A stretch of 64,000 bases of DNA, taken from Candidatus Poribacteria bacterium (GTDB taxonomy: Bacteria > Poribacteria > WGA-4E > PCPOR2b). Below, piece after piece: positions 21,514 through 33,445 of the stretch. Each line of letters begins with the position of its first letter. Positions within the stretch are counted from its first letter, which is position 1. The stretch lies in NCBI GenBank assembly GCA_965208675.1, contig OZ242351.1:3656387-3720386 (forward strand). Direction: 5' to 3'. The notes beneath the pieces were generated by a model, which saw only the letters and a list, made by a program, of their open reading frames with translations, had not been told where the DNA came from and did not search any database. A program made the translations under genes and the position numbers.

Positions 21514-22674
21514 TCAGATTTTGGCGCTGTGGGCACGTAGATACCGCGCCACCTCAACACGGTCTTCGTGTTCTGCCCATGCAAGCGGGGATAGGTGATG
21601 AGCACCGTCTTTATGATTTAGGTTTGCACCTCGCTCTGCGAGAAGCATGGCTACCGCGAGATGGCCCTTGAACGCCGAAAAGTGGAGCGGCATCCACACT
21701 GCACCTAATCCGGGCGGCATCGCATCTACTCCCGCGCCTCGGTCAATCAGCAAGGCGGCAACCTCCGCACGACCATTCAAACTGGCAATACACAATGCTT
21801 CATCAAGAATCTCTTGCGGTTCGTCCGACCGAGACTTCTCTTCAAACCAGCCGATGTCGCCGAGGTTCGGTCGATCAGATGCCGCCTCCGGCTTCAGGGT
21901 TCCATCTTCAGCAAAGTAAGACTTAACCAAGTCAATGCCGCCGCCGCCCGCCGCCATCCAAAAGCTACACGGCGATATACCACGCTCAATCCAAAAATCG
22001 ACAGTATCCCGATTCCCGTGCAACATGGCCGATTTTATCTGCCAAATGGCAGGAGATTCGTCCGAGCGTAACGCGCCGGTTTCGATGAGGAGTTGGACAG
22101 CTTCTAGATTGTTTGCCCAAAACACTTTTTCCATTCGAGCCCCCGCCCCAATAAGGGCGCGCATTATGGGAAGTCGAGTGTCGGTGGAGATGCCTTCGAT
22201 CGAGGCGGCGTATTCTAGAAGTGTGATATAGTCCTCAGATACCTCTGGCACCTTTATCATCGCGTTGACAATGGAGGGGTCATGTGTTAACAGTTCTCTC
22301 AGTGTGTCTGAATCGCCTTTCCGGACGGCTTCAAACGCTGCACTCAAGGTTTCGTCGGTGCGCTCCGTAGGGTCGGCTCCGAGCATGATTGCACGTTCCA
22401 CGAGTTTCGCCCAACTCCTAAAACCCCTTTCACGCGCAATCACGAGTTGCGCCTCTTTTAATGACAGGTCAAACGCGCGGATTTGTTCATCTTTTGCGCC
22501 CGGGAAAAGCGGATGGTATTCCCGAAGGCGATGAACAGCCCAACGCAAACCAGATTGATGCGCCTTCAATAGAGTTCGCGCTAGTCTGTGGTAGTAGGCG
22601 CCGCCATTCCCCCATCCCCACAGCATATGGTCGCGCGGGTCTCGCGTGGAGTGCTCGATCAAGTTCACAGTCAT
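21514..22674 (-). CDS. Ankyrin-repeat protein
   Basis: 386 aa. Several 33-aa ANK-like units in the C-terminal two thirds (...LHFSAFKGHLAVAMLLAERGANLNHKDGAHHLSPLAWAEHEDRVEVARYL...). Confidence 0.7.
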   Translation of the reverse strand: MTVNLIEHSTRDPRDHMLWGWGNGGAYYHRLARTLLKAHQSGLRWAVHRLREYHPLFPGAKDEQIRAFDLSLKEAQLVIARERGFRSWAKLVERAIMLGADPTERTDETLSAAFEAVRKGDSDTLRELLTHDPSIVNAMIKVPEVSEDYITLLEYAASIEGISTDTRLPIMRALIGAGARMEKVFWANNLEAVQLLIETGALRSDESPAIWQIKSAMLHGNRDTVDFWIERGISPCSFWMAAGGGGIDLVKSYFAEDGTLKPEAASDRPNLGDIGWFEEKSRSDEPQEILDEALCIASLNGRAEVAALLIDRGAGVDAMPPGLGAVWMPLHFSAFKGHLAVAMLLAERGANLNHKDGAHHLSPLAWAEHEDRVEVARYLRAHSAKI

Positions 22675-23987: not shown

Positions 23988-24053
23988 CAGTACCCGCCCC
24001 CCTCCTTGCCTGAAGCGTCAAATCCTCTGTCCAACCCGCGTCCCTGTGTATAT

Positions 24054-24081
24054 ATTATAACGTGAGTTTGACCGCAATCAA
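24054..24081 (-). promoter_or_regulatory. Candidate sigma-70 promoter for the MFS gene (TTGATT-N16-TATAAT)
   Basis: Minus strand has TATAAT at 24059..24054 and TTGATT at 24081..24076. About 60-nt leader to ATG 23987. Confidence 0.3.
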
Positions 24082-24516
24082 ACACAAGTTTCTATTGCCT
24101 GAATCGCGAATTACAGCCATCTACACGCATTCAAAAATTCTCCTTATAAAGTTTATAGTTACCCACAGGTCCAAAAAAGTGAGGGTGATAATAAGCGGCG
24201 CGCGATGGTTCAAATGCCTCTTCCACAGTGGGTAATCATTTTCGGTTCGCTCAAATTTCATTCCCCCGTACATTCAGCACACGCTTGGAACAATTGCCGA
24301 ATCGCGACATGACAAATAAATGTATACTAGTGATACGTTAAAATTTCAAGGGTTCTTTGGCTCCCATTTCCCCAAGGTCTCCCGATTGAAATATTCTCAT
24401 CCTTGTCAGCCTCGTCGCTATCCCTCGGCGCGGGCGGCGCATTTAACCCATTGTCATTCCGGTCTCTTACCCATGTGAATTCGACGCCAACCTTGAACGC
24501 TCTAGACCTCCACGAA

Positions 24517-24534
24517 ACCGTGAAATTTCACAGT
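24517..24534. promoter_or_regulatory. Near-perfect 18-bp palindrome ACCGTGAAA/TTTCACAGT (inverted ACTGTGAAA half-sites)
   Basis: Read from sequence. Shares the ACTGTGAAA unit with the tandem copy at 24637-24654 and the single copy at 24985-24993. Confidence 0.5.
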
Positions 24535-24636
24535 AAGGATGGCCGGTCAATGGGAAAATGACTGATAGAAATGCAGTTCCAGACTGGATTTAACGCCTCC
24601 AAAATCATGTTTCAATGTCCGGGTCCGTGTCAATTT

Positions 24637-24654
24637 ACTGTGAAAACTGTGAAA
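24637..24654 (+). repeat. Directly abutting tandem ACTGTGAAA ACTGTGAAA
   Basis: Read from sequence. Belongs to the motif array in the 24.0-25.1 kb non-coding region. Confidence 0.6.
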
Positions 24655-25028
24655 TGTAAATTTGCCGTTCAATAAGTTTTTCCATGACAAACCGCGTTTG
24701 CGCAACCATGTTCTCCTATGCGTCTCGGTGTATGTGAATGACGCGCAGATTCGTTTGTCACGAGAATCATTGAGCAAAGAAGGACGGAACAAATTATCTA
24801 GGGCGAAGGCGAAATCTCGCATCAGAACGGGATTCCGTTCAAAGGAAGGGTTGTACAGTTCTGAGTTGGGCGTTCAATGACATGAAATTGTCAATGTGTG
24901 GCGTAAATATATCAGTCATGGTATGATGCCCCGCCCCTTTTTTGCCGAAAAAAAATCCACAACCTAATCGGTTTGTTGTGAATCACTGTGAAACCTTTTG
25001 AAATGGTGATAATCGGATTTACCGCTTT

Positions 25029-25056
25029 TACTCATTACTCATTACGCTATACTCAT
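25029..25056 (+). repeat. Heptamer tandem repeat TACTCAT x2, degenerate TACGCTA, TACTCAT
   Basis: Read from sequence. Lies 60 nt 3' of the AAA ATPase gene. Confidence 0.6.
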
Positions 25057-25115
25057 AACCCTTTTCGCGTCACTCCTGCGAGCATTTTTAGGTTTTTCAA
25101 AAACGTGTTTGCGGC

Positions 25116-26792
25116 TCAATTGAGTAATCCGCCAACCCCCGTCTGTTCTAACTTATGAATCCCCGCTATCCATTCCTGCCGCATTTGTGGGGAATAATCT
25201 TGAGGAAGCAATGACCTTATGGTGCAATTTGCTAGGGCTTGCAGTGTTTGATATTGCCTGACTGGTCCGATATTCGGGAGAATGCGATCGTCCGCGATTT
25301 CAAGAATCTGATCGAACGATAGCGAACCGTCTTTGGCGGCTGCGCTAAGGTCAGAACGGAGTGAAGCGAAACTTGCCGCGGAATAGCCTTCTGTAGCTTG
25401 GAGCAACTTATCCATGAACGAATCACTAATTGTTTCGTTGATAATGTCCCGCACTGTCCACCTGATAAACGCTTCCCGATCCCTTCCTTCAGGATCAAGC
25501 ACCGGTATAATCATGTCGCCGACTCTTCCCTCTCGCCGCAAGTCCGGTGATAGATTGTAAATTCTAGCGGTCATCAGCAACCACGTAATGTTGCCCTTGA
25601 GTTGGGGGTCTGACATCATCGCCTGTATCCTTCCAGTCAGTCGCCGCTCGGTGGCATGCGATTCTCGTCCGATTTCACCGAATTGCGTGTCCGCCTCATC
25701 CACGAAAATCATGACTTTAACCAGAGCCGCCAATAAACGCCGGAGACGCTCAAAGATGACATCCGTTTGCCCAAACCACATACTCCTGATGTTTTTTAAA
25801 ACTAAAACAGGAATATCCAAGTCGCCAGCAAGTCCCTCGAAAATAAACGTCTTCCCGCTTCCAATCGGACCGCACACCGCCGTGCCCGAGATTGCATCCG
25901 CTCCAGTTGACGTGATGCGAGGTAACAGTTTGGTCTGAATGAAGGAGACCAACCGCTCATTTCCGACCACTGCTTTCAAGCCGTGCGCTGGTTTTTTGAA
26001 TTCGACGACATCTTCACCCAACTGGCCCTCAATAAAGTTGGAAACTTTCTCTATGACATCGCCCGGCTGAAGTTTATTTCCTGAGTAGAGCCCCATTATC
26101 AGAAGTTGCCGCAGCGCATGGGTGGAAATCCCCGCTGTCAGTGTAGCAAGTTGCTCCTGTGTTCCCCAGAGTCTCAACCGCTTCTCTTTAGGTTTCTGAA
26201 TCCGATTAAACCAAAAAATGAAATGTCGTCGTTCTTCGACGCCGGGCGACGGGATTTCAACGGTCGCGATTTGAGGTAACTGGGTGATTCTGGAGTTCAA
26301 CAAGCTTTTGGATTCCGCGATAAATATGACCGTGTCCTCCCCACTCATGAAATCAGGGTCAAGAATCCAATCTTGGACAATGCTGACTCGATGCCTATCC
26401 GCTTGGGACAGACTCTGAATTTCACCTACTGGAAGCAACATGTCAGCCGCTTCAATTATTATCACTAGCCTTTCGCTAAGCAAAATATTGCCACGTGATT
26501 CCACTGATCTCGACAACAAACATAATTGCCGGAGAAATTCGAGGGCGACCGTTGGGTGCCCAATAGAATCATTCAGATTTGCGTCAAATTGCTCCTGCGC
26601 GGATTTTACGGGTTTATCTGGGATAAGATAGTCAAAGGTGTTTCTGGACAGAGGGTTTTGATCTGAATCTTGCCGCCACAATCCGAAGGATTTTTTAAGT
26701 TTTTCCCTGTCGCTGACTCTCAAAAACCTGATGGGACCATTGAGTTCATAAACCATAAGGATAAACCCTGGCACATCCCAGGTCTTCGTCAA
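25116..26792 (-). CDS. Classical-clade AAA ATPase with a ~330-aa N-terminal domain of unknown function
   Basis: Walker A VCGPIGSGKTF. Walker B MIFVDEAD. Second region of homology LLMTARIYNLSPDLRREGRVGDMI. AAA lid TEGYSAASFASLRSDLSAAAKDG (cf. FtsH/Vps4-type TPGFSGADL...). The ORF-track start is TTG, and the frame stays open a further 70 codons upstream to 27002, so the N-terminus is probably longer (see findings). Confidence 0.7.
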   Translation of the reverse strand: MTKTWDVPGFILMVYELNGPIRFLRVSDREKLKKSFGLWRQDSDQNPLSRNTFDYLIPDKPVKSAQEQFDANLNDSIGHPTVALEFLRQLCLLSRSVESRGNILLSERLVIIIEAADMLLPVGEIQSLSQADRHRVSIVQDWILDPDFMSGEDTVIFIAESKSLLNSRITQLPQIATVEIPSPGVEERRHFIFWFNRIQKPKEKRLRLWGTQEQLATLTAGISTHALRQLLIMGLYSGNKLQPGDVIEKVSNFIEGQLGEDVVEFKKPAHGLKAVVGNERLVSFIQTKLLPRITSTGADAISGTAVCGPIGSGKTFIFEGLAGDLDIPVLVLKNIRSMWFGQTDVIFERLRRLLAALVKVMIFVDEADTQFGEIGRESHATERRLTGRIQAMMSDPQLKGNITWLLMTARIYNLSPDLRREGRVGDMIIPVLDPEGRDREAFIRWTVRDIINETISDSFMDKLLQATEGYSAASFASLRSDLSAAAKDGSLSFDQILEIADDRILPNIGPVRQYQTLQALANCTIRSLLPQDYSPQMRQEWIAGIHKLEQTGVGGLLN

Positions 26793-27009
26793 AAGTGAAA
26801 CTAGCGGAACATAATCCCCCTCGTTTTTGGCTTTAGCGCAATAGAAAAGATCGTGATTGTTTCCTGCAAGTATAAGAGTTCTCGACGTTCCTGCGTTGAT
26901 TATCGTTCCCGTTTGAGATAGAAACTCATATTTCGGCTTTTTGACGGCTATTTGTCGACACCTCCATCTCTCTTTACTATATGGCGTCTGCCAAAAGAAA
27001 CTCTAAAAT

Positions 27010-27822
27010 CTAAAACGTAAAGTTTAGCCCATTGACGATTTCCAAATCATGCTTCTTGACATTAGCGGGCGGTTCATTGTCGTAGCGGAAACCCAACCAT
27101 GTCGTAAATCCAAGTTTCTTGGTCAATCGAAATCCGATGCTTCCCTCAAATAGAATCCGGTAATCGGAGAAGCTTGCCGGCTGGAACTGATAGTAGCCCG
27201 TTGCAGCGGAGGTTAGCCGTTCATCAATCCGCCAGGTCCATGTAACGTAATTGGTCGAACGGATAATGTTTGATTCGATTTTTGCTTCGCTTGTGTCATC
27301 ATTGATGACCTCGTCTTCCCACATTAGACCGATGCCGATATACGGGTTAAACGCCCTATAGCTTTCCGATTTGGTTACTTCCCTCAACGGCGAAATTCGC
27401 AATCCGCCGCCAACTAAATTACGGTCCTGCAACCGGATGAAATCGTTGAATTGCTTTTGAGCGAAGGTCTCAACCGCTGCATCTTGACTGACAGTTCGAA
27501 TACCGCGCAAGTGAATCAGACCCTTATCAATAAACGATTTGTTGTCCTTGCTTCCTTGATGGAGGTTTGCCAAAATGAATAGATGGTAATTTTCAGCTAG
27601 ATAATCCGAACGGAATCGGGTTTTCAGTGTCAGCAAATCCGTATTGCCAGCATGAGCCGTGAGATTAAAGGCGATTTTGTTATACCAGCCGTGCCCCAAT
27701 TCCATCTGCTGTAAGGTTTCGGCGTCGAAGATATTGACTTGGGCTGATGTGGACCTGCAAAGCGACAATGAACATGCAAAGTATAGCGCACATTCAATTA
27801 AAATGACTGCATGTAACCTCAT
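27010..27822 (-). CDS. Putative outer-membrane beta-barrel protein (DUF481-like)
   Basis: 270 aa. N-terminal signal peptide ...CSLSLCRSTSAQV. Alternating amphipathic beta-strand pattern. C-terminal aromatic residue (...NGLNFTF) typical of OMP barrels. Confidence 0.5.
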   Translation of the reverse strand: MRLHAVILIECALYFACSLSLCRSTSAQVNIFDAETLQQMELGHGWYNKIAFNLTAHAGNTDLLTLKTRFRSDYLAENYHLFILANLHQGSKDNKSFIDKGLIHLRGIRTVSQDAAVETFAQKQFNDFIRLQDRNLVGGGLRISPLREVTKSESYRAFNPYIGIGLMWEDEVINDDTSEAKIESNIIRSTNYVTWTWRIDERLTSAATGYYQFQPASFSDYRILFEGSIGFRLTKKLGFTTWLGFRYDNEPPANVKKHDLEIVNGLNFTF

Positions 27823-27893
27823 GCTTTCCTATTCCTCAATGCGTCCTTGTAACTAGATAGATGTCGAAAACGCAATATATACGGATTGTGTCA

Positions 27894-28721
27894 TTAGACA
27901 GGAAGTTTCGATTCCGTATCAGCCGAGGATTTTCGATCTTCTGCTTGATCGGTTTGTTGCGCCCCAAAAATTAACTCGTCAAACTCGTTGGTCGCCGTCG
28001 ATTCTCTGGCCGCTGCAAGATATGTTTCCTCCTCGGTGCGAGAGTCGGTGCCGGCTAATTCTTGAGCAACGTGCGCTCTGCTTTTCGCCTTTTGCCGAAC
28101 ATCCCGCATCCGTGCAAGTTCCGCTGATGTGCCGTCGGTACTGATGCCGGATAGCATATCGGCAATTTGTTCTTGCTCTCTCGCCGTAATTAAATCGGCG
28201 ACAGCTTCCGCCTGTTCCTGCTTGATTTTATCCAAATCTCGATGTAATGCACTGATTTGCGTCATATGCCCGCTAATGTCCTCTTGAGCGCTTTCGATGT
28301 CGGCCTCTAGCTCTTGGATTCGCGCATTTTTTTCTTCCAGCGTTGAATTAAAATCGTTGTAAGCATCAACACAACGCGTGTAGTCAGGATTTTGTTTGAT
28401 TGAGTCCTGTGCCTGCCCCTGCTTCTGTAGATCCTCGGCTATACGCTTTGCCTTCGCTAAAGCCCCGGTTTTGAGTCGTTCGAGTCTATCTACATCGTCG
28501 GTAAGGTTTTGAACAGTTCCCTCTTTACGCTTAACTAGCGACATCAGTTGACCAATTGCCGACTTGTAACGCTGGACATTCGCTTTTTTATCCGCGATAA
28601 TTTTTTCATACGCCCCTCTGATAGCTTCAGGGTTTTCCATCACCCTATCGGAAAGCTCGTGGGCTCTGCCTGTAAGCGCATACCACATAGATTTGAAAAG
28701 TCTTCCGATTCCACTCGCCAT
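27894..28721 (-). CDS. pspA: PspA/IM30 (Vipp1) family protein
   Basis: 275 aa, all predicted coiled-coil. N-terminus LFKSMWYALTGRAHELSDRVMENPEAIRGAYEKIIAD parallels PspA/Vipp1 FSR...VNANINALLEKAEDPQKL. Heptad-rich and acidic C-terminus. Confidence 0.6.
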   Translation of the reverse strand: MASGIGRLFKSMWYALTGRAHELSDRVMENPEAIRGAYEKIIADKKANVQRYKSAIGQLMSLVKRKEGTVQNLTDDVDRLERLKTGALAKAKRIAEDLQKQGQAQDSIKQNPDYTRCVDAYNDFNSTLEEKNARIQELEADIESAQEDISGHMTQISALHRDLDKIKQEQAEAVADLITAREQEQIADMLSGISTDGTSAELARMRDVRQKAKSRAHVAQELAGTDSRTEEETYLAAARESTATNEFDELIFGAQQTDQAEDRKSSADTESKLPV

Positions 28722-29513
28722 TTTGCATTCTCCTTCTATCCATGATTAAAGGTTTAACTTTTAATAGCAATTCAAGTTACCAGCCAAGACGCGAAACTTC
28801 AATTGGTTCGTTTATGGTCACCCCGATACTCCATAGGATACCTGTTATTGCAAGACATTGTACAATATTTGGTTAAGTTTTACAATTGGAATTCCATGTT
28901 GACCAGGACCATCTCACAGAAAAAAAGGGTTGCAATCGAGTGTCTGGCGGTCTCTCCCTTTGGGATGTAGGGACTGAAAGTACGGGTCAATATTCTTTGA
29001 TTGCGGTGCCAACATAGATAGGTAATGTGATATAATTCGCGTCATACTGGCCCATGGGAGTCGAAGATGATTATTGAAAAGCGTTTATCGGCAGCGGATG
29101 CGCGGAATCATGGCGACGCGATTCCGGTGTGTGCGGGGCCTTACCACACGAATGGATGAAAAGCGCGTGGGACGTTCGGGTAGAAACACTGAAACTAGGG
29201 GATTCGCTTGCGGGCCGGTAAACAGGTTTTGATATCAAGCGAATCAAAACTGAGAAGGTCATCGTTTGGGTGGGAATTGGATGTCTAGCAACTGCGGGCG
29301 GCGCTTGGATCCCCTTCTAAACCAAGAGTAACCGTCACCAGATATATTATTTAGATGGAGTAGCGGCCAATTAGACGACGTGATTTCCTCAAACTCATTC
29401 CAATAGGCATTTCCGGTTACTGGTTATCCGGATGTTCAGAGTCGGAAAATCTGCTGAGCGATGCCATTGACGACGATAAAATTACCCTTGGCCCTCTTCG
29501 TGCTGAAACTCTT

Positions 29514-30772: not shown

Positions 30773-33445
30773 TTATTTGAGGATAACCATACGTCTTGCA
30801 GAGGAGGAGTCTGTTGTGTCGAGCTTATAGAAGTATGGATTACTACTGACTCGCTCGCCGCGGTCATTCCGTCCATCCCAATAGGCAGCTTTCTCCCGAG
30901 TCAGATAAGAACCAGCGGCTTGATTCCCCAGTTGAAGTGTACGTATACTGCGTCCGGATGCGTCATAAATGGTAATGGACACATCGGACGCCTCCGCTAG
31001 CTTATACGGAATCCATGTTTCAGGGTTGAACGGATTTGGGTAATTCTGAAGCACTTGAGTGGTCATCGGCACCAAGTTGGCAAGCGTCGAATGCAATGTT
31101 GAGTAAGCCCGCCGCATATCCTCCAGCGTAATCAGTTTATCTATCTTTCCAAATGGTTCGCCTGAAGTGACGTCAGTCACAATCAAACGCAGTGTATCTC
31201 CAACGTGGACTAATGGGTTCCGGTTCATATCGGCGAAACCTAACGTCAATCGGGCCCCTGATTCCACGTTCGCGGTTGTAAGCAGGTTGTTCGTTCTGAG
31301 GTTTTTCACGGAAACATGGTAAGGTCCAGGGTAACCTTCTCCCTCTATCACGCCGTCAACAACAAACGCCCATAGATTTTGCGGTATTGGCGTTGCCGAT
31401 GGGGCTGCGATGCCTTCCGCATCCGGTGAATCGCTCCAGCCTGCTCCCGTGAACTTGACATCGCCGCCATTAGGCGTATTGACGATATAACCGCGTCCGC
31501 CCTCAATCTGAAATCCGTCGCCCGGAGTATCACGAGTCCATGAGACGAATCTGCCTTCGTCAGAGATACTGATTACCATTGTCGCGTTGATAAATTCCAT
31601 GAAACTTTGAGCGGTAAACGGTTCCAATGGACGCAAAGGCGGTGAAATAATGTTCAAGCCGTTGTTTAGGGGCACCGTAAACGAGAGTTTGCCGGTAGCT
31701 TCCTCCGGCAAAACGACATCTTCAACAGACCCATCCAGCGTACTGACCATGGTCGCTAGATTGTTTGTAGCTCGGTGAAAAAACGGCGGCCAAAAACGTC
31801 TAACGGCTTGAACCTTTTCAATCTCTTGCGTCACGGGTGCCGATTCACCCATTGTCAGGAGAATAAATGCGACCCGAAAATCTTTCTGAGAAGAATCTGC
31901 ATGTGGGATTCGCACACCGTTTGCTGCGACAATACCTTCAATGGTAACTTCCTCTTTCTCGCCGCGGAATGAAACGTCTGCCATGGGGTTCAAAAATCGC
32001 AAATTACCCCATAAAGACGGATCGTCGAACGGAGGTGGAATATCTATATCATGGGCGTTAACGACTAGGAACGTCGGATGAACCTCCTCCGGCCTTAACA
32101 AGCCCATCAAATATAAATCGAGTGGACCGAATATATCCTTCGGGTCTAAAGTAGTGAAAGTCCCATCGCCATTATCGCGAATATCGTTGCCGCCCATGAC
32201 CGAACCACCGGTATGCAGGAAGAAATTCCAATGCGTGCCGCCGCGTCCTAACAACTGGGTTGGATTTAAATCAACTGCCCATCCGTGCCCGAACTCGTGC
32301 AACACGACACTCAAGGTTGAAGTTGCGGAACCGCTCACGTTCTCCAATGGATTGTCAGACCATACCTTTAAATTCTTCATCACGAGAAAAGTTCTCAACC
32401 TGCCCTGACTCCCGTAATCATCGGTATGATCGAAAATCGGAAAAATGCCCTTGCCGGAATAAACGCTGCCAATTCCCAACACATCATTTTTGACGGGGAC
32501 GGCAAAGGCGAGGACGCGAAAGATGTCTAAATCCGATTCAAAATTGGTGAAGAGAACCAAGCTATCAAAATCGTCGCCGTGGCTCTTATAAAACTCTCGT
32601 GCAACATTTTGGATGTTGACTGTCGCTTTGTCCACGAAAACTTCGGCGATGGCGCCTGCCGATCCTTGAAACGGCAAATCGTCGGAATAGTCGACCAAAG
32701 CTGTCTGTGAGGCGTCGTTAAGCCCCCCGGGGGACAATCCCACAATTCCTGTTCGGACTCTAGACGATTCGAATCGGATGTCGATGACGCCCGTATCGAA
32801 CAGAACTACCTGCATTGTAACTTGTGAGTCAATAGCTTCAAACGTCGGAACATTGAACCAAGTGATTGTAATTTGGCCCGGAGAATCTTTAACTTCGACC
32901 GCGGTCGCTTCCTCACTAAAGGGCACTGACGATCCAGGGTTCAAATCTGCATACAGCGCACCAATGCGAGGCGGCCCCCCCAAGAAATTTTGCAAATCCC
33001 TAGCACGTGGATTGGTGTCGCCTGTACCGAATGTGAAGTTTCCATCGGAGTTAACGAAGACATCGGTATACCCCTGTCCGAAAAATGTGAACGGGAATCC
33101 GATGGCAATCTTTCTGCTGTCGTCATCGGTCAAATCCAACACCTGGCCGAAAACGGCTTCAAATTCAACCTCATCGGGTCTGGACACATCGTATCCTTCC
33201 ACAGCATTGGGGGTAAATCGTAAGCTGCTATTCGCTAAATCGAAAAAGTTTGTGGGTTGGACGAGGTGTTCGTTGCCCTGAATGACTACCACGTGCCCTA
33301 CATCAGTGGATGTTGAAGGGAAGCTAACTTCTCGCGCAGCGTTTATTTTCAGTTGTTGATACGGCGAATCGCCCGGTCTTGCTTGGGCATCTACACAGAA
33401 GAGAATTAAAAGTATTGTGCTCAACGGCACTATTCTTAACTTCAT
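30773..33445 (-). CDS. Secreted zinc metalloprotease (HExxH) with T9SS-type C-terminal sorting domain
   Basis: 890 aa. Signal peptide MKLRIVPLSTILLILFCVDAQA. Zinc site VVLHEFGHGW. C-terminal about 80 aa reads NYPNPFNPETWIPYKL...SITIYDASGRSIRTLQ...YFYKL, i.e. the type-A por-secretion CTD pattern. Confidence 0.7.
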   Translation of the reverse strand: MKLRIVPLSTILLILFCVDAQARPGDSPYQQLKINAAREVSFPSTSTDVGHVVVIQGNEHLVQPTNFFDLANSSLRFTPNAVEGYDVSRPDEVEFEAVFGQVLDLTDDDSRKIAIGFPFTFFGQGYTDVFVNSDGNFTFGTGDTNPRARDLQNFLGGPPRIGALYADLNPGSSVPFSEEATAVEVKDSPGQITITWFNVPTFEAIDSQVTMQVVLFDTGVIDIRFESSRVRTGIVGLSPGGLNDASQTALVDYSDDLPFQGSAGAIAEVFVDKATVNIQNVAREFYKSHGDDFDSLVLFTNFESDLDIFRVLAFAVPVKNDVLGIGSVYSGKGIFPIFDHTDDYGSQGRLRTFLVMKNLKVWSDNPLENVSGSATSTLSVVLHEFGHGWAVDLNPTQLLGRGGTHWNFFLHTGGSVMGGNDIRDNGDGTFTTLDPKDIFGPLDLYLMGLLRPEEVHPTFLVVNAHDIDIPPPFDDPSLWGNLRFLNPMADVSFRGEKEEVTIEGIVAANGVRIPHADSSQKDFRVAFILLTMGESAPVTQEIEKVQAVRRFWPPFFHRATNNLATMVSTLDGSVEDVVLPEEATGKLSFTVPLNNGLNIISPPLRPLEPFTAQSFMEFINATMVISISDEGRFVSWTRDTPGDGFQIEGGRGYIVNTPNGGDVKFTGAGWSDSPDAEGIAAPSATPIPQNLWAFVVDGVIEGEGYPGPYHVSVKNLRTNNLLTTANVESGARLTLGFADMNRNPLVHVGDTLRLIVTDVTSGEPFGKIDKLITLEDMRRAYSTLHSTLANLVPMTTQVLQNYPNPFNPETWIPYKLAEASDVSITIYDASGRSIRTLQLGNQAAGSYLTREKAAYWDGRNDRGERVSSNPYFYKLDTTDSSSARRMVILK

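What the first reader, a model, noticed from the sequence alone, without database searches (positions are those of the whole stretch)
25116..28721. PspA/IM30 (bacterial ESCRT-III) gene co-oriented with an OM beta-barrel gene and a classical-clade AAA ATPase: a candidate ESCRT-III/Vps4-like remodelling module
Three genes in one orientation are separated by 71-nt and 7-nt gaps: pspA-like (28721-27894), a signal-peptide beta-barrel OMP (27822-27010) and an AAA ATPase (from about 27002/26967 to 25116). PspA/Vipp1 are established ESCRT-III superfamily members. In archaea and eukaryotes ESCRT-III polymers are disassembled by the classical-clade AAA ATPase Vps4. Canonical bacterial psp systems instead pair PspA with the sigma-54 activator PspF, which belongs to a different AAA+ clade. 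The ATPase here has classical AAA hallmarks (GPIGSGKT, IFVDEAD, SRH-like region, FtsH/Vps4-type lid motif EGYSAASFASLRSDL) plus a roughly 330-aa N-terminal domain of unknown function that could be the substrate or PspA-recognition module. An envelope-spanning PspA, OMP and AAA unit is not a standard annotated operon.
Basis: inference. Interest (0 to 1): 0.65.

Follow-up and report, generated by a model that had tools for sequence, protein, structure and literature searches.

The report
PspA paired with tandem AAA ATPase
A sponge-symbiont (Poribacteria) genome carries a widely conserved but untested pairing of a membrane-repair protein (PspA, the bacterial relative of ESCRT-III) with a two-domain AAA motor that probably recycles it; the pairing was already predicted in 2024, and the outer-membrane gene lying between the two is a local insertion.

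Summary
The three co-oriented genes are real: PspA-like (28721-27894), a DUF481 outer-membrane barrel (27822-27010) and a classical AAA ATPase (26951-25116).

- **ATPase.** It is not Vps4-like. It has no MIT domain, and its "unknown" 330-aa N-terminal region is a degenerate AAA domain. The protein is a Cdc48/Rix7-like tandem AAA with a dead D1 and a live D2.
- **Linkage.** The PspA-AAA link is strongly conserved: 68 of 69 species-level loci with enough upstream DNA, across more than seven phyla.
- **Outer-membrane gene.** DUF481 occurs in only 5 of about 89 loci. It is an insertion into a reduced operon, not a core part.
- **Prior work.** Ravi et al. 2024 (mSystems) already described this "PspA + inactive-AAA/active-AAA" association and proposed Vps4-like remodelling. 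No experiments were found.

New here:
- Only the AAA-proximal PspA copy carries a conserved C-terminal tail (EFDxLIG, a variable linker, then terminal LP[E/V/L]). This is a candidate ATPase-recognition motif.
- The ATPase gene starts at a conserved non-canonical AUA/AUC/AUU codon in 57 of 60 poribacterial loci, plus the window.

Verdict: a new member of a known, predicted and uncharacterised kind; moderate interest.

The parts
27894..28721 (-). pspA-like gene (275 aa), PspA/IM30 family of the ESCRT-III superfamily. It is the tail-bearing copy that always accompanies the AAA gene.
   Evidence: Pfam PF04012 E 2.3e-7, match 8-243 of the protein to 2-205/220 of the model. The only PDB sequence hits are Vipp1/PspA. 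The AF2 model has a long helical hairpin (31-100 / 112-192) at pLDDT 86-96. The top 7 Foldseek PDB hits are Vipp1/PspA. 84-42% identical orthologues sit next to the AAA gene in 7+ phyla.
28668..28721 (-). N-terminal amphipathic helix alpha-0 of PspA (MASGIGRLFKSMWYALTG), the presumed membrane-binding helix.
   Evidence: Helix 4-16 in the model. The pattern R7, K10, Y14, G18 is conserved across phyla. The membrane-binding role is inferred from published PspA/Vipp1 work.
27897..27986 (-). C-terminal tail of PspA: EFDELIFG (27986-27963), a variable acidic/polar linker, and the terminal LPV (27905-27897). Candidate ATPase-recognition element.
   Evidence: E246, F247, D248, L250 and the terminal L273, P274 are invariant in 15 orthologues from 7+ phyla, while the linker varies. 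The tail is present in the AAA-proximal PspA of every locus except the N-masked L064 copy, and absent from all upstream PspA paralogues. Its function is inferred.
28730..28735 (-). Shine-Dalgarno AAGGAG, 8 nt before the pspA ATG.
   Evidence: Read directly from the sequence.
28857..28885 (-). Sigma-70-like promoter candidate (TTGTAA-17-TACAAT), about 136 nt upstream of pspA.
   Evidence: Consensus scan only, 9 of 12 matches. Weak evidence. No sigma-54 -24/-12 element lies upstream of pspA.
27010..27822 (-). DUF481 (YdiY-like) outer-membrane beta-barrel gene (270 aa). A lineage-specific insertion, probably co-transcribed but not a core part of the module.
   Evidence: Pfam PF04338 at 44.3 bits against a cut-off of 21.1. 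Signal-peptide-like N-terminus and a C-terminal ...NGLNFTF (direct reading). Found in only 5 loci: the window, L006 and L007 between pspA and AAA, and L004 and L008 between the substrate-binding-protein and permease genes.
25116..26951 (-). Tandem (type II) classical AAA ATPase gene, 611 aa, starting at a non-canonical ATA codon.
   Evidence: Homologues cover 100% of the 611 aa. AF2 model pLDDT 89.9, pTM 0.85. Foldseek aligns about 600-650 columns to Rix7, p97, Cdc48, Drg1 and Pex1/6 D1-D2.
26949..26965 (-). Translation start region of the AAA gene: GGAGG (26965-26961), an 8-nt spacer and ATA (26951-26949).
   Evidence: The ATA aligns with Met-1 of ATG-bearing orthologues (P0029, L039, L063, L064). 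ATA, ATC or ATT occurs at this codon in 57 of 60 poribacterial loci, plus the window, always after GGAGG or GGGGG. In 48 of 58 there is no canonical start between the upstream stop and this codon.
25977..26951 (-). D1: degenerate, presumably non-catalytic AAA domain (residues 1-325).
   Evidence: hhalign of the N-terminal against the C-terminal half gives probability 97.1%, E 5e-11. The P-loop is replaced by LILAGNNHDLF (26876-26844), with no GxxGxGKT. The Walker B 'DE' is replaced by 'EA' in IIIEAADML (26462-26436). There is no NCBIfam hit even at E<=10.
25119..25976 (-). D2: active-looking classical AAA domain (residues 326-611). It has Walker A GPIGSGKT (25871-25848), pore loop SMWFGQT (25784-25764), Walker B IFVDEAD (25709-25689), arginine fingers in DLRREGRVGD (25544-25515), the lid motif TEGYSAASFASL, and a family-specific C-terminal motif RQYQTLQALANCTIRSLLP (25259-25203).
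   Evidence: Pfam AAA at 49.2 bits. Family alignment A1: G361, G366, K367 and A420 are invariant, and E419, R389, G394 and R476 are conserved in at least 90% of sequences. Best family models are CDC48 > PAN > FtsH > CdvC. The sensor-1 Asn is replaced by Ala (TAR instead of TNR), and by Ser or Ala across the family.

Best explanation
This is a reduced copy of a conserved bacterial two-part module. One part is a PspA/IM30 (ESCRT-III superfamily) protein with a special C-terminal tail. The other is a dedicated tandem AAA ATPase with a dead D1 ring and a live D2 ring.

Proposed mechanism:
1. PspA binds the cytoplasmic face of the inner membrane through its N-terminal amphipathic helix and polymerises.
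2. The ATPase, presumably a hexamer, engages the exposed C-terminal tail of PspA (the EFDxLIG helix plus the terminal LP[E/V/L]).
3. ATP hydrolysis in D2, acting through the WFG pore loops, pulls subunits out of the polymer. This gives energy-driven turnover or disassembly, functionally analogous to Vps4 acting on ESCRT-III.
4. D1 serves as a structural or substrate-docking ring.

The non-AUG (AUA) start probably keeps the ATPase sub-stoichiometric to PspA.

The DUF481 outer-membrane gene is a lineage-specific insertion. It sits where the ancestral operon carried substrate-binding-protein and ABC-transporter genes. It may be co-expressed but is not part of the machine.

Shown here: gene identities, domain architecture, conserved linkage, and the distribution of the tail and the start codon. 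Inferred: the physical PspA-ATPase interaction, the direction of action (disassembly), and the role of the tail.
For: **Linkage**
- A PspA gene lies co-oriented upstream of the AAA gene in 68 of 69 species-level loci with at least 4.5 kb of upstream DNA.
- These loci come from Poribacteria, Nitrospiraceae, Hydrogenedentota, Acidobacteria, Deltaproteobacteria/Desulfobacterales, Verrucomicrobia and CSSED10-310.
- The link persists in a 27%-identical relative, L088.
- The dyad survives when every other operon gene is lost: pspA and AAA are directly adjacent in many loci, with gaps of about 40-100 nt.

**ATPase**
- It is a high-confidence D1-D2 fold. D1 is degenerate.
- D2 keeps Walker A, Walker B, the aromatic pore loop and the arginine fingers across the family.

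**PspA**
- The family assignment rests.
- The tail is found in the AAA-proximal PspA of every locus except the N-masked L064 copy, and in no upstream paralogue. Its ends are invariant and its linker is variable.

**Independent prior proposal**
- Ravi et al. 2024 proposed the same function for this association.
Against: - There is no direct evidence of interaction.
- The ATPase lacks any recognisable substrate-binding N-domain such as MIT or a Cdc48-type N-domain, so it is unknown how it would bind PspA.
- The sensor-1 Asn is replaced by Ala or Ser across the family. This could mean slow hydrolysis or an altered mechanism.
- Many relatives embed the pair in an operon with substrate-binding-protein/OmpA fusions, a VWA protein and an ABC transporter. 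The ATPase could serve that system instead.
- Sequence similarity of this PspA clade to canonical PspA is weak: it falls below Pfam's cut-off, and a family profile finds only coiled-coil noise in PDB sequences.
- PspA rods reportedly have intrinsic ATPase activity (PMC11746142), so an external motor is not strictly required.
Confidence: 0.5

Rival explanations
1. PspA is an adaptor rather than the substrate. It senses damaged or curved inner membrane and recruits the tandem AAA unfoldase there. The unfoldase then extracts or unfolds other clients, such as mislocalised or damaged membrane proteins, or components of the associated substrate-binding-protein/OmpA/ABC system. This resembles Cdc48 or Msp1 working with adaptors.
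For: The ATPase is closest to Cdc48/Rix7/Drg1-type segregases, which use adaptors. The long operons carry transporter, OmpA-fusion and VWA genes. The conserved tail would serve equally well as a docking motif.
Against: The dyad is retained without any other operon gene in many genomes, including this window. No candidate client is conserved. In the only well-studied parallel (ESCRT-III/Vps4), the tail-bearing polymer subunit is itself the substrate.
Confidence: 0.22
2. The genes are only co-regulated. PspA and the ATPase are independent envelope-stress or proteostasis factors that share an operon without touching each other.
For: No interaction data exist. The ATPase has no known PspA-binding domain. 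One locus (L068) and a distant clade (L089) have the ATPase without a nearby PspA.
Against: Adjacency in 68 of 69 loci across deep phylogenetic distances, despite heavy rearrangement of everything around the pair. A tail motif is specific to the ATPase-linked PspA copy.
Confidence: 0.15
3. One reading: PspA, the DUF481 outer-membrane barrel and the ATPase form one envelope-spanning remodelling unit.
For: The three genes are co-oriented with 71-nt and 58-nt gaps and no convincing terminator between them. The same layout occurs in two close relatives, L006 and L007.
Against: DUF481 is present in only 5 loci of one poribacterial clade. In two of those it sits between unrelated transporter genes. 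About 75 other loci with the PspA-AAA pair lack it. A cytoplasmic AAA protein and an outer-membrane barrel have no conserved periplasmic connector here.
Confidence: 0.05
4. The ATPase is a true bacterial Vps4/CdvC orthologue (meiotic-clade AAA) acquired with, or ancestral to, ESCRT-III.
For: Classical AAA hallmarks and adjacency to an ESCRT-III-superfamily gene.
Against: There is no MIT domain and no Pfam Vps4_C hit. The architecture is tandem AAA rather than a single cassette. The CdvC model scores lower than the CDC48, PAN and FtsH models. Vps4 is not among the 60 best PDB sequence hits, whereas VAT, Cdc48, p97, AFG2, NSF, FtsH and katanin are.
Confidence: 0.03

Closest known systems
PspA-associated 'inactive classical AAA + classical AAA' ATPase operons (Ravi, Anantharaman, Aravind, Gennaro et al., mSystems 2024, PMC11237479; exemplars AEY64320.1/AEY64321.1 of Clostridium sp. 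BNL1100 and the Handelsmanbacteria operon around OGG56892.1)
   Same: - The ATPase architecture is the same: a dead N-terminal AAA domain plus a live C-terminal AAA domain.
- It sits next to PspA in the same way.
- Relatives of the window locus have the same long operon: PBP+OmpA fusion, permease, ABC ATPase, a TM coiled-coil protein and the AAA gene.
- The proposed function is the same: ATP-dependent remodelling comparable to Snf7/Vps4.
   Different: - The window holds a stripped-down version consisting of the PspA-AAA dyad only, with a DUF481 gene inserted.
- Some poribacterial relatives add 1-3 tail-less PspA paralogues and a 600-aa protein of unknown family.
- I did not see the C-terminal tail motif or the AUH start codon mentioned in the passages of the paper and its supplement that I read.
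- Direct sequence comparison with the paper's exemplar accessions was not possible.
ESCRT-III / Vps4 (CdvB/CdvC) of archaea and eukaryotes
   Same: - An ESCRT-III-superfamily polymer gene is linked to a classical-clade AAA gene.
- The polymer subunit has a conserved short C-terminal motif after a flexible linker, comparable in position to MIM motifs.
- Some relatives carry several polymer paralogues with only one tail-bearing copy.
- The pore-loop translocase motifs are retained.
   Different: - The ATPase has two AAA cassettes, with D1 degenerate.
- It has no MIT domain, no Vps4 beta-domain or C-terminal-helix signature, and is not closest to CdvC.
- The polymer belongs to the PspA branch, not the Snf7 branch.
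- The tail motif (EFDxLIG...LPE) does not match the MIM consensus as I recall it; this was not tested.
Cdc48/p97/VAT, Rix7/NVL, Drg1/AFG2 and Pex1/Pex6 (type II classical AAA unfoldases)
   Same: - These are the best sequence and structure matches over both domains.
- The D2 pore loop MWFG is like that of p97 D2, by my recollection of the p97 sequence.
- One ring is catalytically dead, as in Pex1/Pex6 D1 or NSF D2 (from established knowledge).
   Different: - There is no N-terminal double-psi-barrel or other adaptor-binding N-domain. The protein starts about 20 residues before D1 strand 1.
- Identity is only 12-17%.
- HMM scores are far below family cut-offs: 40 bits against 802 for CDC48.
- The protein has a family-specific C-terminal motif, R-x-x-Q-x-L-x-A-x-x-x-C-T...LLP.
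Haloarchaeal 'Halo_adaptin' loci: a Vps4-like ATPase without MIT next to a PspA-like gene (Makarova et al., mBio 2024, PMC10936438)
   Same: A PspA-like gene lies directly upstream of a Cdc48-related classical AAA protein that lacks an MIT domain.
   Different: The archaeal ATPase keeps a VAT-like N-domain and groups with Vps4 in their tree. Ours has a degenerate D1 instead. Homology between the two systems was not tested here.
Canonical proteobacterial Psp system (PspF-sigma54-PspABC)
   Same: PspA is paired with an AAA+ protein.
   Different: PspF is a sigma-54 enhancer-binding AAA+ protein of a different clade and carries a DNA-binding domain. Here there is no sigma-54 promoter upstream of pspA, none of the genes annotated next to pspA and the AAA gene is PspB or PspC, and the ATPase has no HTH.

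Membership tests
PspA/IM30 (Pfam PF04012; ESCRT-III superfamily) | Match to the family HMM at or above the curated cut-off | tested here: inconclusive
   31.1 bits, E 2.3e-7, full-length match, against a cut-off of 33.9. The orthologue in L069 scores 19.7 bits. Nearly all database homologues carry a precomputed PF04012 hit. A family profile finds no PspA among PDB sequences.
PspA/IM30 (Pfam PF04012; ESCRT-III superfamily) | Fold: N-terminal amphipathic helix, a long alpha1/alpha2-3 hairpin, then further helices | tested here: met
   AF2 model: H4-16, H31-100, H112-192, H198-260, with the hairpin at pLDDT 86-96. Foldseek PDB ranks 1-7 are all Vipp1/PspA, E 3e-4 to 7.5e-3, about 240-250 aligned columns.
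PspA/IM30 (Pfam PF04012; ESCRT-III superfamily) | Forms membrane-binding homo-oligomeric rings or rods | not testable with these tools
   Needs biochemistry or cryo-EM.
Vps4/CdvC (meiotic-clade AAA acting on ESCRT-III) | N-terminal MIT domain that binds ESCRT-III tails | tested here: not met
   No Pfam MIT hit at E<=0.1. Residues 1-325 are a degenerate AAA domain.
Vps4/CdvC (meiotic-clade AAA acting on ESCRT-III) | Single AAA cassette with the Vps4 beta-domain and C-terminal helix | tested here: not met
   Tandem D1-D2 fold. No Pfam Vps4_C hit.
Vps4/CdvC (meiotic-clade AAA acting on ESCRT-III) | AAA domain groups with Vps4/CdvC rather than with other classical clades | tested here: not met
   D2 scores: CDC48 40.1 bits, PAN2 30.2, FtsH 25.8, CdvC 24.7. 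The PDB sequence ranking runs VAT/Cdc48/p97/AFG2/NSF, then AFG3L2, katanin and FtsH, and Vps4 is not in the best 60. These are score rankings only. No tree was built.
Vps4/CdvC (meiotic-clade AAA acting on ESCRT-III) | Encoded next to an ESCRT-III-superfamily gene | tested here: met
   PspA lies upstream in 68 of 69 loci.
PspA-associated tandem AAA (Ravi et al. 2024) | [quoted passage not shown] | tested here: met
   In D1 the Walker A is lost and the Walker B DE has become EA.
PspA-associated tandem AAA (Ravi et al. 2024) | Gene dyad with PspA | tested here: met
PspA-associated tandem AAA (Ravi et al. 2024) | Optional longer operon with a PBP+OmpA protein, ABC permease, ABC ATPase and a membrane-anchored coiled-coil ('TM+Snf7') protein | tested here: met
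   Met in relatives L004, L008, L009, L016, L069, L075, L077, L082, L083 and L088. These genes are absent from the window itself.
PspA-associated tandem AAA (Ravi et al. 2024) | Sequence homology to the published exemplars (AEY64320.1; the ATPase of the OGG56892.1 operon) | not tested
   The exemplar sequences could not be retrieved with these tools. L088 (27% identity) has the gene order the paper gives for the Handelsmanbacteria operon, plus a VWA gene after the AAA gene.
Cdc48/p97 family (TIGR01243) | N-terminal substrate/adaptor domain, two active AAA domains, and an HMM score above the cut-off | tested here: not met
   40 bits against a cut-off of 802.65. There is no N-domain and D1 is degenerate.
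Canonical Psp regulon (PspF/sigma-54/PspBC) | Sigma-54 promoter upstream of pspA, a PspF enhancer-binding protein, and PspB/PspC partners | tested here: not met
   No TGGCAC-N5-TTGC match (up to 1 mismatch) upstream of pspA. The flanking genes are a glucose/sorbosone dehydrogenase-like gene and DUF481. Only the 64-kb window was examined, and PspF, PspB and PspC were not searched for by homology.
DUF481 (PF04338, YdiY-like outer-membrane proteins) | HMM match above the cut-off, a signal peptide and a C-terminal aromatic beta-signal | tested here: met
   44.3 bits against 21.1, covering 5-210 of 210 model positions. N-terminal hydrophobic leader ...STSA/QV and C-terminal ...NFTF (direct reading).

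The most novel reading that the evidence does not exclude
Bacteria do have a dedicated ATP-driven recycling motor for their ESCRT-III-like polymers. It is not Vps4 but a Cdc48-like tandem AAA protein with a dead D1. It recognises a MIM-like C-terminal tail (EFDxLIG...LP[E/V/L]) carried by a single 'handle' PspA subunit.

In Poribacteria the system is apparently phylum-wide. It has been elaborated into multi-paralogue PspA arrays with one tail-bearing subunit plus a 600-aa accessory protein. Expression of the motor is throttled by a conserved AUA/AUC start codon. This could underlie intracellular membrane or vesicle formation in these symbionts, and would be a case of convergent (or very ancient) polymer-plus-unfoldase logic across all three domains of life.
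Probability: 0.35. Interest if true: 0.75.

Novelty: new member of a known kind. Interest (0 to 1): 0.48.

Why it matters
How bacterial ESCRT-III-like polymers (PspA/Vipp1) are disassembled or remodelled is an open question. A 2025 review states that a Vps4-like ATPase "appears absent in bacteria" (PMC7619361). Structural papers invoke chaperones, PspF or intrinsic nucleotide hydrolysis instead (PMC11746142).

This module is found in at least 478 species-level genomes. It offers a compact two-protein system in which to test ATP-driven PspA turnover directly.

The work here sharpens that test in four ways:
- It defines the true gene model, with an AUA start and a 611-aa product.
- It shows that the ATPase has a dead-D1/live-D2 architecture and no MIT domain.
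- It removes the outer-membrane gene from the model.
- It nominates a specific, mutable C-terminal PspA motif as the recognition handle.

If the mechanism holds, the polymer-plus-unfoldase principle would extend to bacteria. That would bear on whether Vps4-type regulation arose once from a Cdc48-like ancestor or several times.

Tried and rejected
**Tool calls that failed or were unavailable**
- A locus scan with the 30-sequence alignment A1 failed because the alignment had no conserved stretch. It was repeated with the 13-sequence alignment A2.
It was redone with the Poribacteria-only alignment A4. This gave a confident hairpin but low-confidence termini, so the tail structure is not modelled.
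- No complex prediction was possible.

**Searches that gave nothing useful**
- A PspA family profile against PDB sequences returned only coiled-coil noise. Family assignment therefore rests on Pfam, the single-sequence PDB hits and the fold search.
- A sigma-54 promoter search found nothing near pspA, and the seven matches elsewhere in the window are within chance expectation.
- Rfam and tRNA scans found nothing in or near the locus.
- A cluster look-up of distant AAA relatives gave almost no names or organisms.

**Features considered and rejected**
- The terminator-like hairpins inside the locus all lie within coding sequence or overlap start codons. They were not taken as real terminators.
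- The ATG at 26967 was rejected as the ATPase start. It is out of frame, and its 13-codon ORF is not conserved in L007 or L005.
- The 153-aa ORF annotated downstream of the AAA gene in L006 is broken by stops in the window and is low-complexity. It was not considered a gene.
- TelA or a generic coiled-coil identity for gene 1 was rejected. No such Pfam hit outscores PspA.

**Not attempted**
- A reference phylogeny of D2. Reference Vps4, katanin, PAN and Cdc48 sequences could not be fetched, and I did not want to rely on sequences recalled from memory.

Full report
**1. What is in the sequence**

Three ORFs lie head to tail on the minus strand between 28721 and 25116.

*Gene 1 (28721-27894, 275 aa).*
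- It matches Pfam PspA_IM30 over its full length (E 2.3e-7, 31.1 bits), just under the curated cut-off of 33.9.
- Its only PDB sequence hits at E<=1 are Vipp1/PspA.
- Almost all of its database homologues carry a precomputed PF04012 hit, and JGI names several of them "phage shock protein A".
- An AlphaFold2 model shows an N-terminal short helix, a long helical hairpin (31-100 / 112-192, pLDDT 86-96) and further helices.
- The seven best Foldseek matches of that model in the PDB are all Vipp1/PspA.
- A profile built from 15 orthologues found only coiled-coil noise among PDB sequences. This is therefore a divergent PspA clade. TelA or other alternatives are not supported.

*Gene 2 (27822-27010, 270 aa).* It is a clear DUF481 (YdiY-like) outer-membrane barrel: 44.3 bits against a cut-off of 21.1. 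It has a leader peptide and a C-terminal ...NFTF.

*Gene 3 (ends at 25116).* It carries a classical AAA domain (PF00004, 49.2 bits).

**2. The ATPase gene model**

- Position 27002 simply follows an in-frame stop.
- The ATG at 26967 is out of frame.
- No ATG, GTG or TTG occurs in frame before the TTG at 26792.

Homologues nevertheless cover the upstream 53 codons. An ATG-bearing orthologue begins MAIKNPHYTF, where the window reads (I)AVKKPKYEF.

The codon aligned with that Met is ATA at 26951-26949, 8 nt downstream of GGAGG. Across 60 poribacterial loci this codon is ATA in 43, ATC in 13, ATT in 1 and ATG in 3, always behind GGAGG or GGGGG. In 48 of 58 ATH cases, counting the window, no canonical start lies between the upstream stop and this codon.

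The gene is therefore 26951-25116 (611 aa), the gap to DUF481 is 58 nt, and initiation is very probably at a non-AUG (AUH) codon. In many other Poribacteria an ATG at codon +15 is a possible alternative start. In the window's clade the first canonical start (+53) would delete the first strand of D1 and the invariant G30, N31 and D34.

**3. What the ATPase is**

The full-length model is confident (pLDDT 89.9, pTM 0.85). It aligns over about 600-650 columns with tandem-AAA (type II) unfoldases: N-terminally deleted Rix7, p97/VCP, Cdc48, Drg1/AFG2, the 55LCC complex and Pex1/Pex6.

*The N-terminal half is a degenerate AAA domain.*
- A profile of the N-terminal half (1-325) matches a profile of the C-terminal half at 97.1% probability, E 5e-11. 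The match aligns the Walker-B-to-lid region of both halves.
- The P-loop is replaced by LILAGNNHDLF, and the Walker B DE by EA.
- No NCBIfam model hits this half even at E<=10.

So the "330-aa domain of unknown function" is a degenerate AAA domain (D1), not an MIT-like module.

*D2 keeps the catalytic motifs.*
- It has GPIGSGKT, the pore loop SMWFGQT, IFVDEAD and the two arginines of DLRREGR.
- These are invariant or nearly so across a family alignment reaching down to 24% identity.
- The canonical sensor-1 Asn is Ala here, and Ser or Ala throughout the family.

*D2 is not specifically Vps4-like.*

| NCBIfam model | D2 score (bits) |
|---|---|
| CDC48 | 40.1 |
| PAN2 | 30.2 |
| FtsH | 25.8 |
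| CdvC | 24.7 |

PDB sequence hits are led by VAT, Cdc48, p97, AFG2 and NSF. Vps4 is absent from the best 60. There is no MIT or Vps4_C Pfam hit.

**4. Neighbourhood conservation**

The window comes from Candidatus Poribacteria (names). A relative that is 94% identical at the nucleotide level (OZ242326.1, L007) has the same layout.

A scan of one genome per species found at least 478 relatives of the ATPase. Eighty loci were fetched: most from Poribacteria, and 16 carrying titles of Verrucomicrobia/Limisphaerales, CSSED10-310, Sumerlaeota, Nitrospiraceae, Hydrogenedentota, Deltaproteobacteria/Desulfobacterales, Acidobacteria or Pirellulales, plus one contig binned as Bathyarchaeia.

A PspA gene lies upstream and co-oriented in 68 of the 69 loci with at least 4.5 kb of upstream DNA. 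Three layouts recur:

| Layout | Gene order | Where found |
|---|---|---|
| (a) | PspA directly followed by AAA | Many Poribacteria, Nitrospiraceae, Hydrogenedentota |
| (b) | One to three extra PspA paralogues, the main PspA, a 600-aa protein with no Pfam hit, then AAA | Poribacteria only |
| (c) | PBP+OmpA fusion, VWA, PBP+OmpA fusion, TM coiled-coil protein, PspA, substrate-binding protein, ABC permease, ABC ATPase, AAA | Several phyla, and the poribacterial clade nearest the window (L004, L008, L009, L016) |

A 27%-identical relative (L088) has PspA, OmpA protein, permease, ABC ATPase, TM coiled-coil protein, AAA and VWA.

DUF481 occurs in only five loci. In L004 and L008 it is inserted between the substrate-binding-protein and permease genes. 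In the window, L006 and L007 the transporter genes are gone, leaving PspA-DUF481-AAA. None of the missing genes is elsewhere in the 64-kb window.

The window's trio is therefore a reduced derivative of layout (c). The outer-membrane gene is a passenger, not a conserved partner.

**5. Prior knowledge**

- Ravi et al. [quoted passage not shown]
- They add that the pair may sit in longer operons with an ABC ATPase, a permease and a PBPB+OmpA protein, and they suggest ATP-dependent remodelling comparable to Snf7/Vps4.
[quoted passage not shown] That is the system found here.
- I found no experimental study of it.
- A 2025 review still says a Vps4-like ATPase "appears absent in bacteria".
- Makarova et al. 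2024 describe a loosely parallel haloarchaeal case: an MIT-less, Cdc48-like "Vps4-like" ATPase next to a PspA-like gene. They derive Vps4 from a Cdc48-like ancestor.

**6. New observations that bear on mechanism**

*(i) A tail specific to the ATPase-linked PspA.* In every locus except the N-masked L064 copy, the PspA copy closest to the ATPase (about 275-280 aa) ends with a bipartite tail. It consists of EF[D/E]xL[I/V](G/F), roughly 20 variable acidic or polar residues, and a terminal LP[E/V/L/I]. All 40-odd upstream paralogues (123-260 aa) lack both elements. Across 15 orthologues from at least 7 phyla, E246, F247, D248, L250, L273 and P274 are invariant while the linker is not. A looser version (FELEMGLA...KLPD) is visible in the 27%-identity clade. 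A short conserved motif at the end of a flexible tail, carried by one designated subunit, is what one would expect of an unfoldase handle. It parallels the position of MIM motifs in ESCRT-III.

*(ii) The AUH start codon of the ATPase.* Contrasted with the AAGGAG-N8-ATG start of pspA, it suggests that the motor is made in much smaller amounts than the polymer, or is under IF3-type control. This is an inference.

*(iii) No sigma-54 promoter precedes pspA*. A weak sigma-70-like site lies about 136 nt upstream.

**7. Most likely mechanism and rivals**

*Best reading (confidence about 0.5).*
1. PspA polymerises on the inner membrane.
2. The tandem AAA hexamer docks on the tail.
3. ATP hydrolysis in D2 pulls subunits through the WFG pore loops and drives polymer turnover. 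D1 acts as a structural ring.

*Rivals.*
- PspA is an adaptor that brings a Cdc48-like segregase to damaged membrane to extract other clients (0.22).
- Co-regulation only, with no physical contact (0.15).
- True Vps4 orthology (0.03).

*Caveats.* There is no interaction evidence and no recognisable substrate-binding domain. The sensor-1 residue is atypical, and many relatives have a transporter context.

**8. Verdict**

The thing is a new, reduced member of a kind that has been predicted from genomes but never tested.

Interest is moderate. It is not a discovery of kind. It is a well-defined handle on the open question of how bacterial ESCRT-III-like polymers are recycled, and it now comes with a corrected gene model and a specific candidate recognition motif.

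Noticed in passing
window 26949-26965 (minus strand); same position in L007-L067: The AAA gene starts at a conserved non-canonical codon (ATA 43, ATC 13, ATT 1, ATG 3 among 60 poribacterial loci; the window itself has ATA), 7-10 nt after GGAGG or GGGGG. Automatic gene calls therefore truncate it (543-561 aa) or extend it (630 aa). This suggests IF3-sensitive, low-level translation.
   Followed up: yes
window 26929-26967 (minus strand): An out-of-frame 13-codon ORF (MEVSTNSRQKAEI*) starts at the ATG embedded just before the Shine-Dalgarno sequence and overlaps the ATA start. It is present in the window and L006, shortened in L004, and absent in L007 (ACG) and L005. It is probably not functional.
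   Followed up: partly
L001 3611-7997; also L005, L010, L012, L030, L031, L035, L044, L046, L050-L056, L066: Many Poribacteria carry one to three extra, shorter, tail-less PspA paralogues upstream of the tail-bearing PspA. They also carry a 557-631-aa protein with no Pfam hit between PspA and the AAA gene. This resembles a multi-subunit ESCRT-III set with one 'handle' subunit and a possible adaptor. All of these genes are absent from the window.
   Followed up: partly
window 25563-25580 (LLMTAR) and family alignment A1: The sensor-1 Asn of classical AAA proteins (ATN-R) is replaced by Ala here, and by Ser or Ala throughout the family, while Walker A, Walker B and the arginine fingers are kept. 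The consequence for ATP hydrolysis is unknown.
   Followed up: partly
window 25203-25259 (minus strand): A family-specific C-terminal motif follows the lid domain: R-x-Y-Q-x-L-Q-A-x-x-N-C-T-x-x-S-L-L-P. R565, Q568, A572, C576 and P583 are invariant or nearly so down to 24% identity. Its role is unknown; it may be an inter-subunit or D1-D2 contact.
   Followed up: no
window 23988-25115: A 1.1-kb stretch with no convincing gene lies between the AAA stop and the next gene (an MFS transporter, 23987-22761). The 153-aa ORF annotated here in relative L006 is interrupted by stops in the window and looks spurious. There is no Rfam hit.
   Followed up: partly
window 21514-22674 (minus strand): A 386-aa ankyrin-repeat protein (Pfam Ank hits on the syntenic orthologue in L006). 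This is a eukaryote-like protein class that, to my knowledge, is typical of sponge symbionts.
   Followed up: no
window 30773-33445 (minus strand): An 890-aa secreted protein ends in ...NYPNPFNPETWIPYKL...RMVILK, which looks like a T9SS-type C-terminal sorting domain. This is by eye only and was not tested.
   Followed up: no
L084 (DATKVG010000055.1, binned as Candidatus Bathyarchaeia archaeon): This contig carries the bacterial-type operon, with a PspA 79% identical to a Nitrospiraceae copy and an AAA protein 52% identical to the window's. It is probably a misbinned bacterial contig rather than an archaeal occurrence.
   Followed up: no
L068 (Verrucomicrobia) and L089 (a clade 25% identical to the window's AAA): These are the only loci with ample flanks in which the ATPase has no PspA within 8-10 kb. 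L089 sits in a gatCAB context. The linkage may break down in the most distant branch of the family.
   Followed up: no
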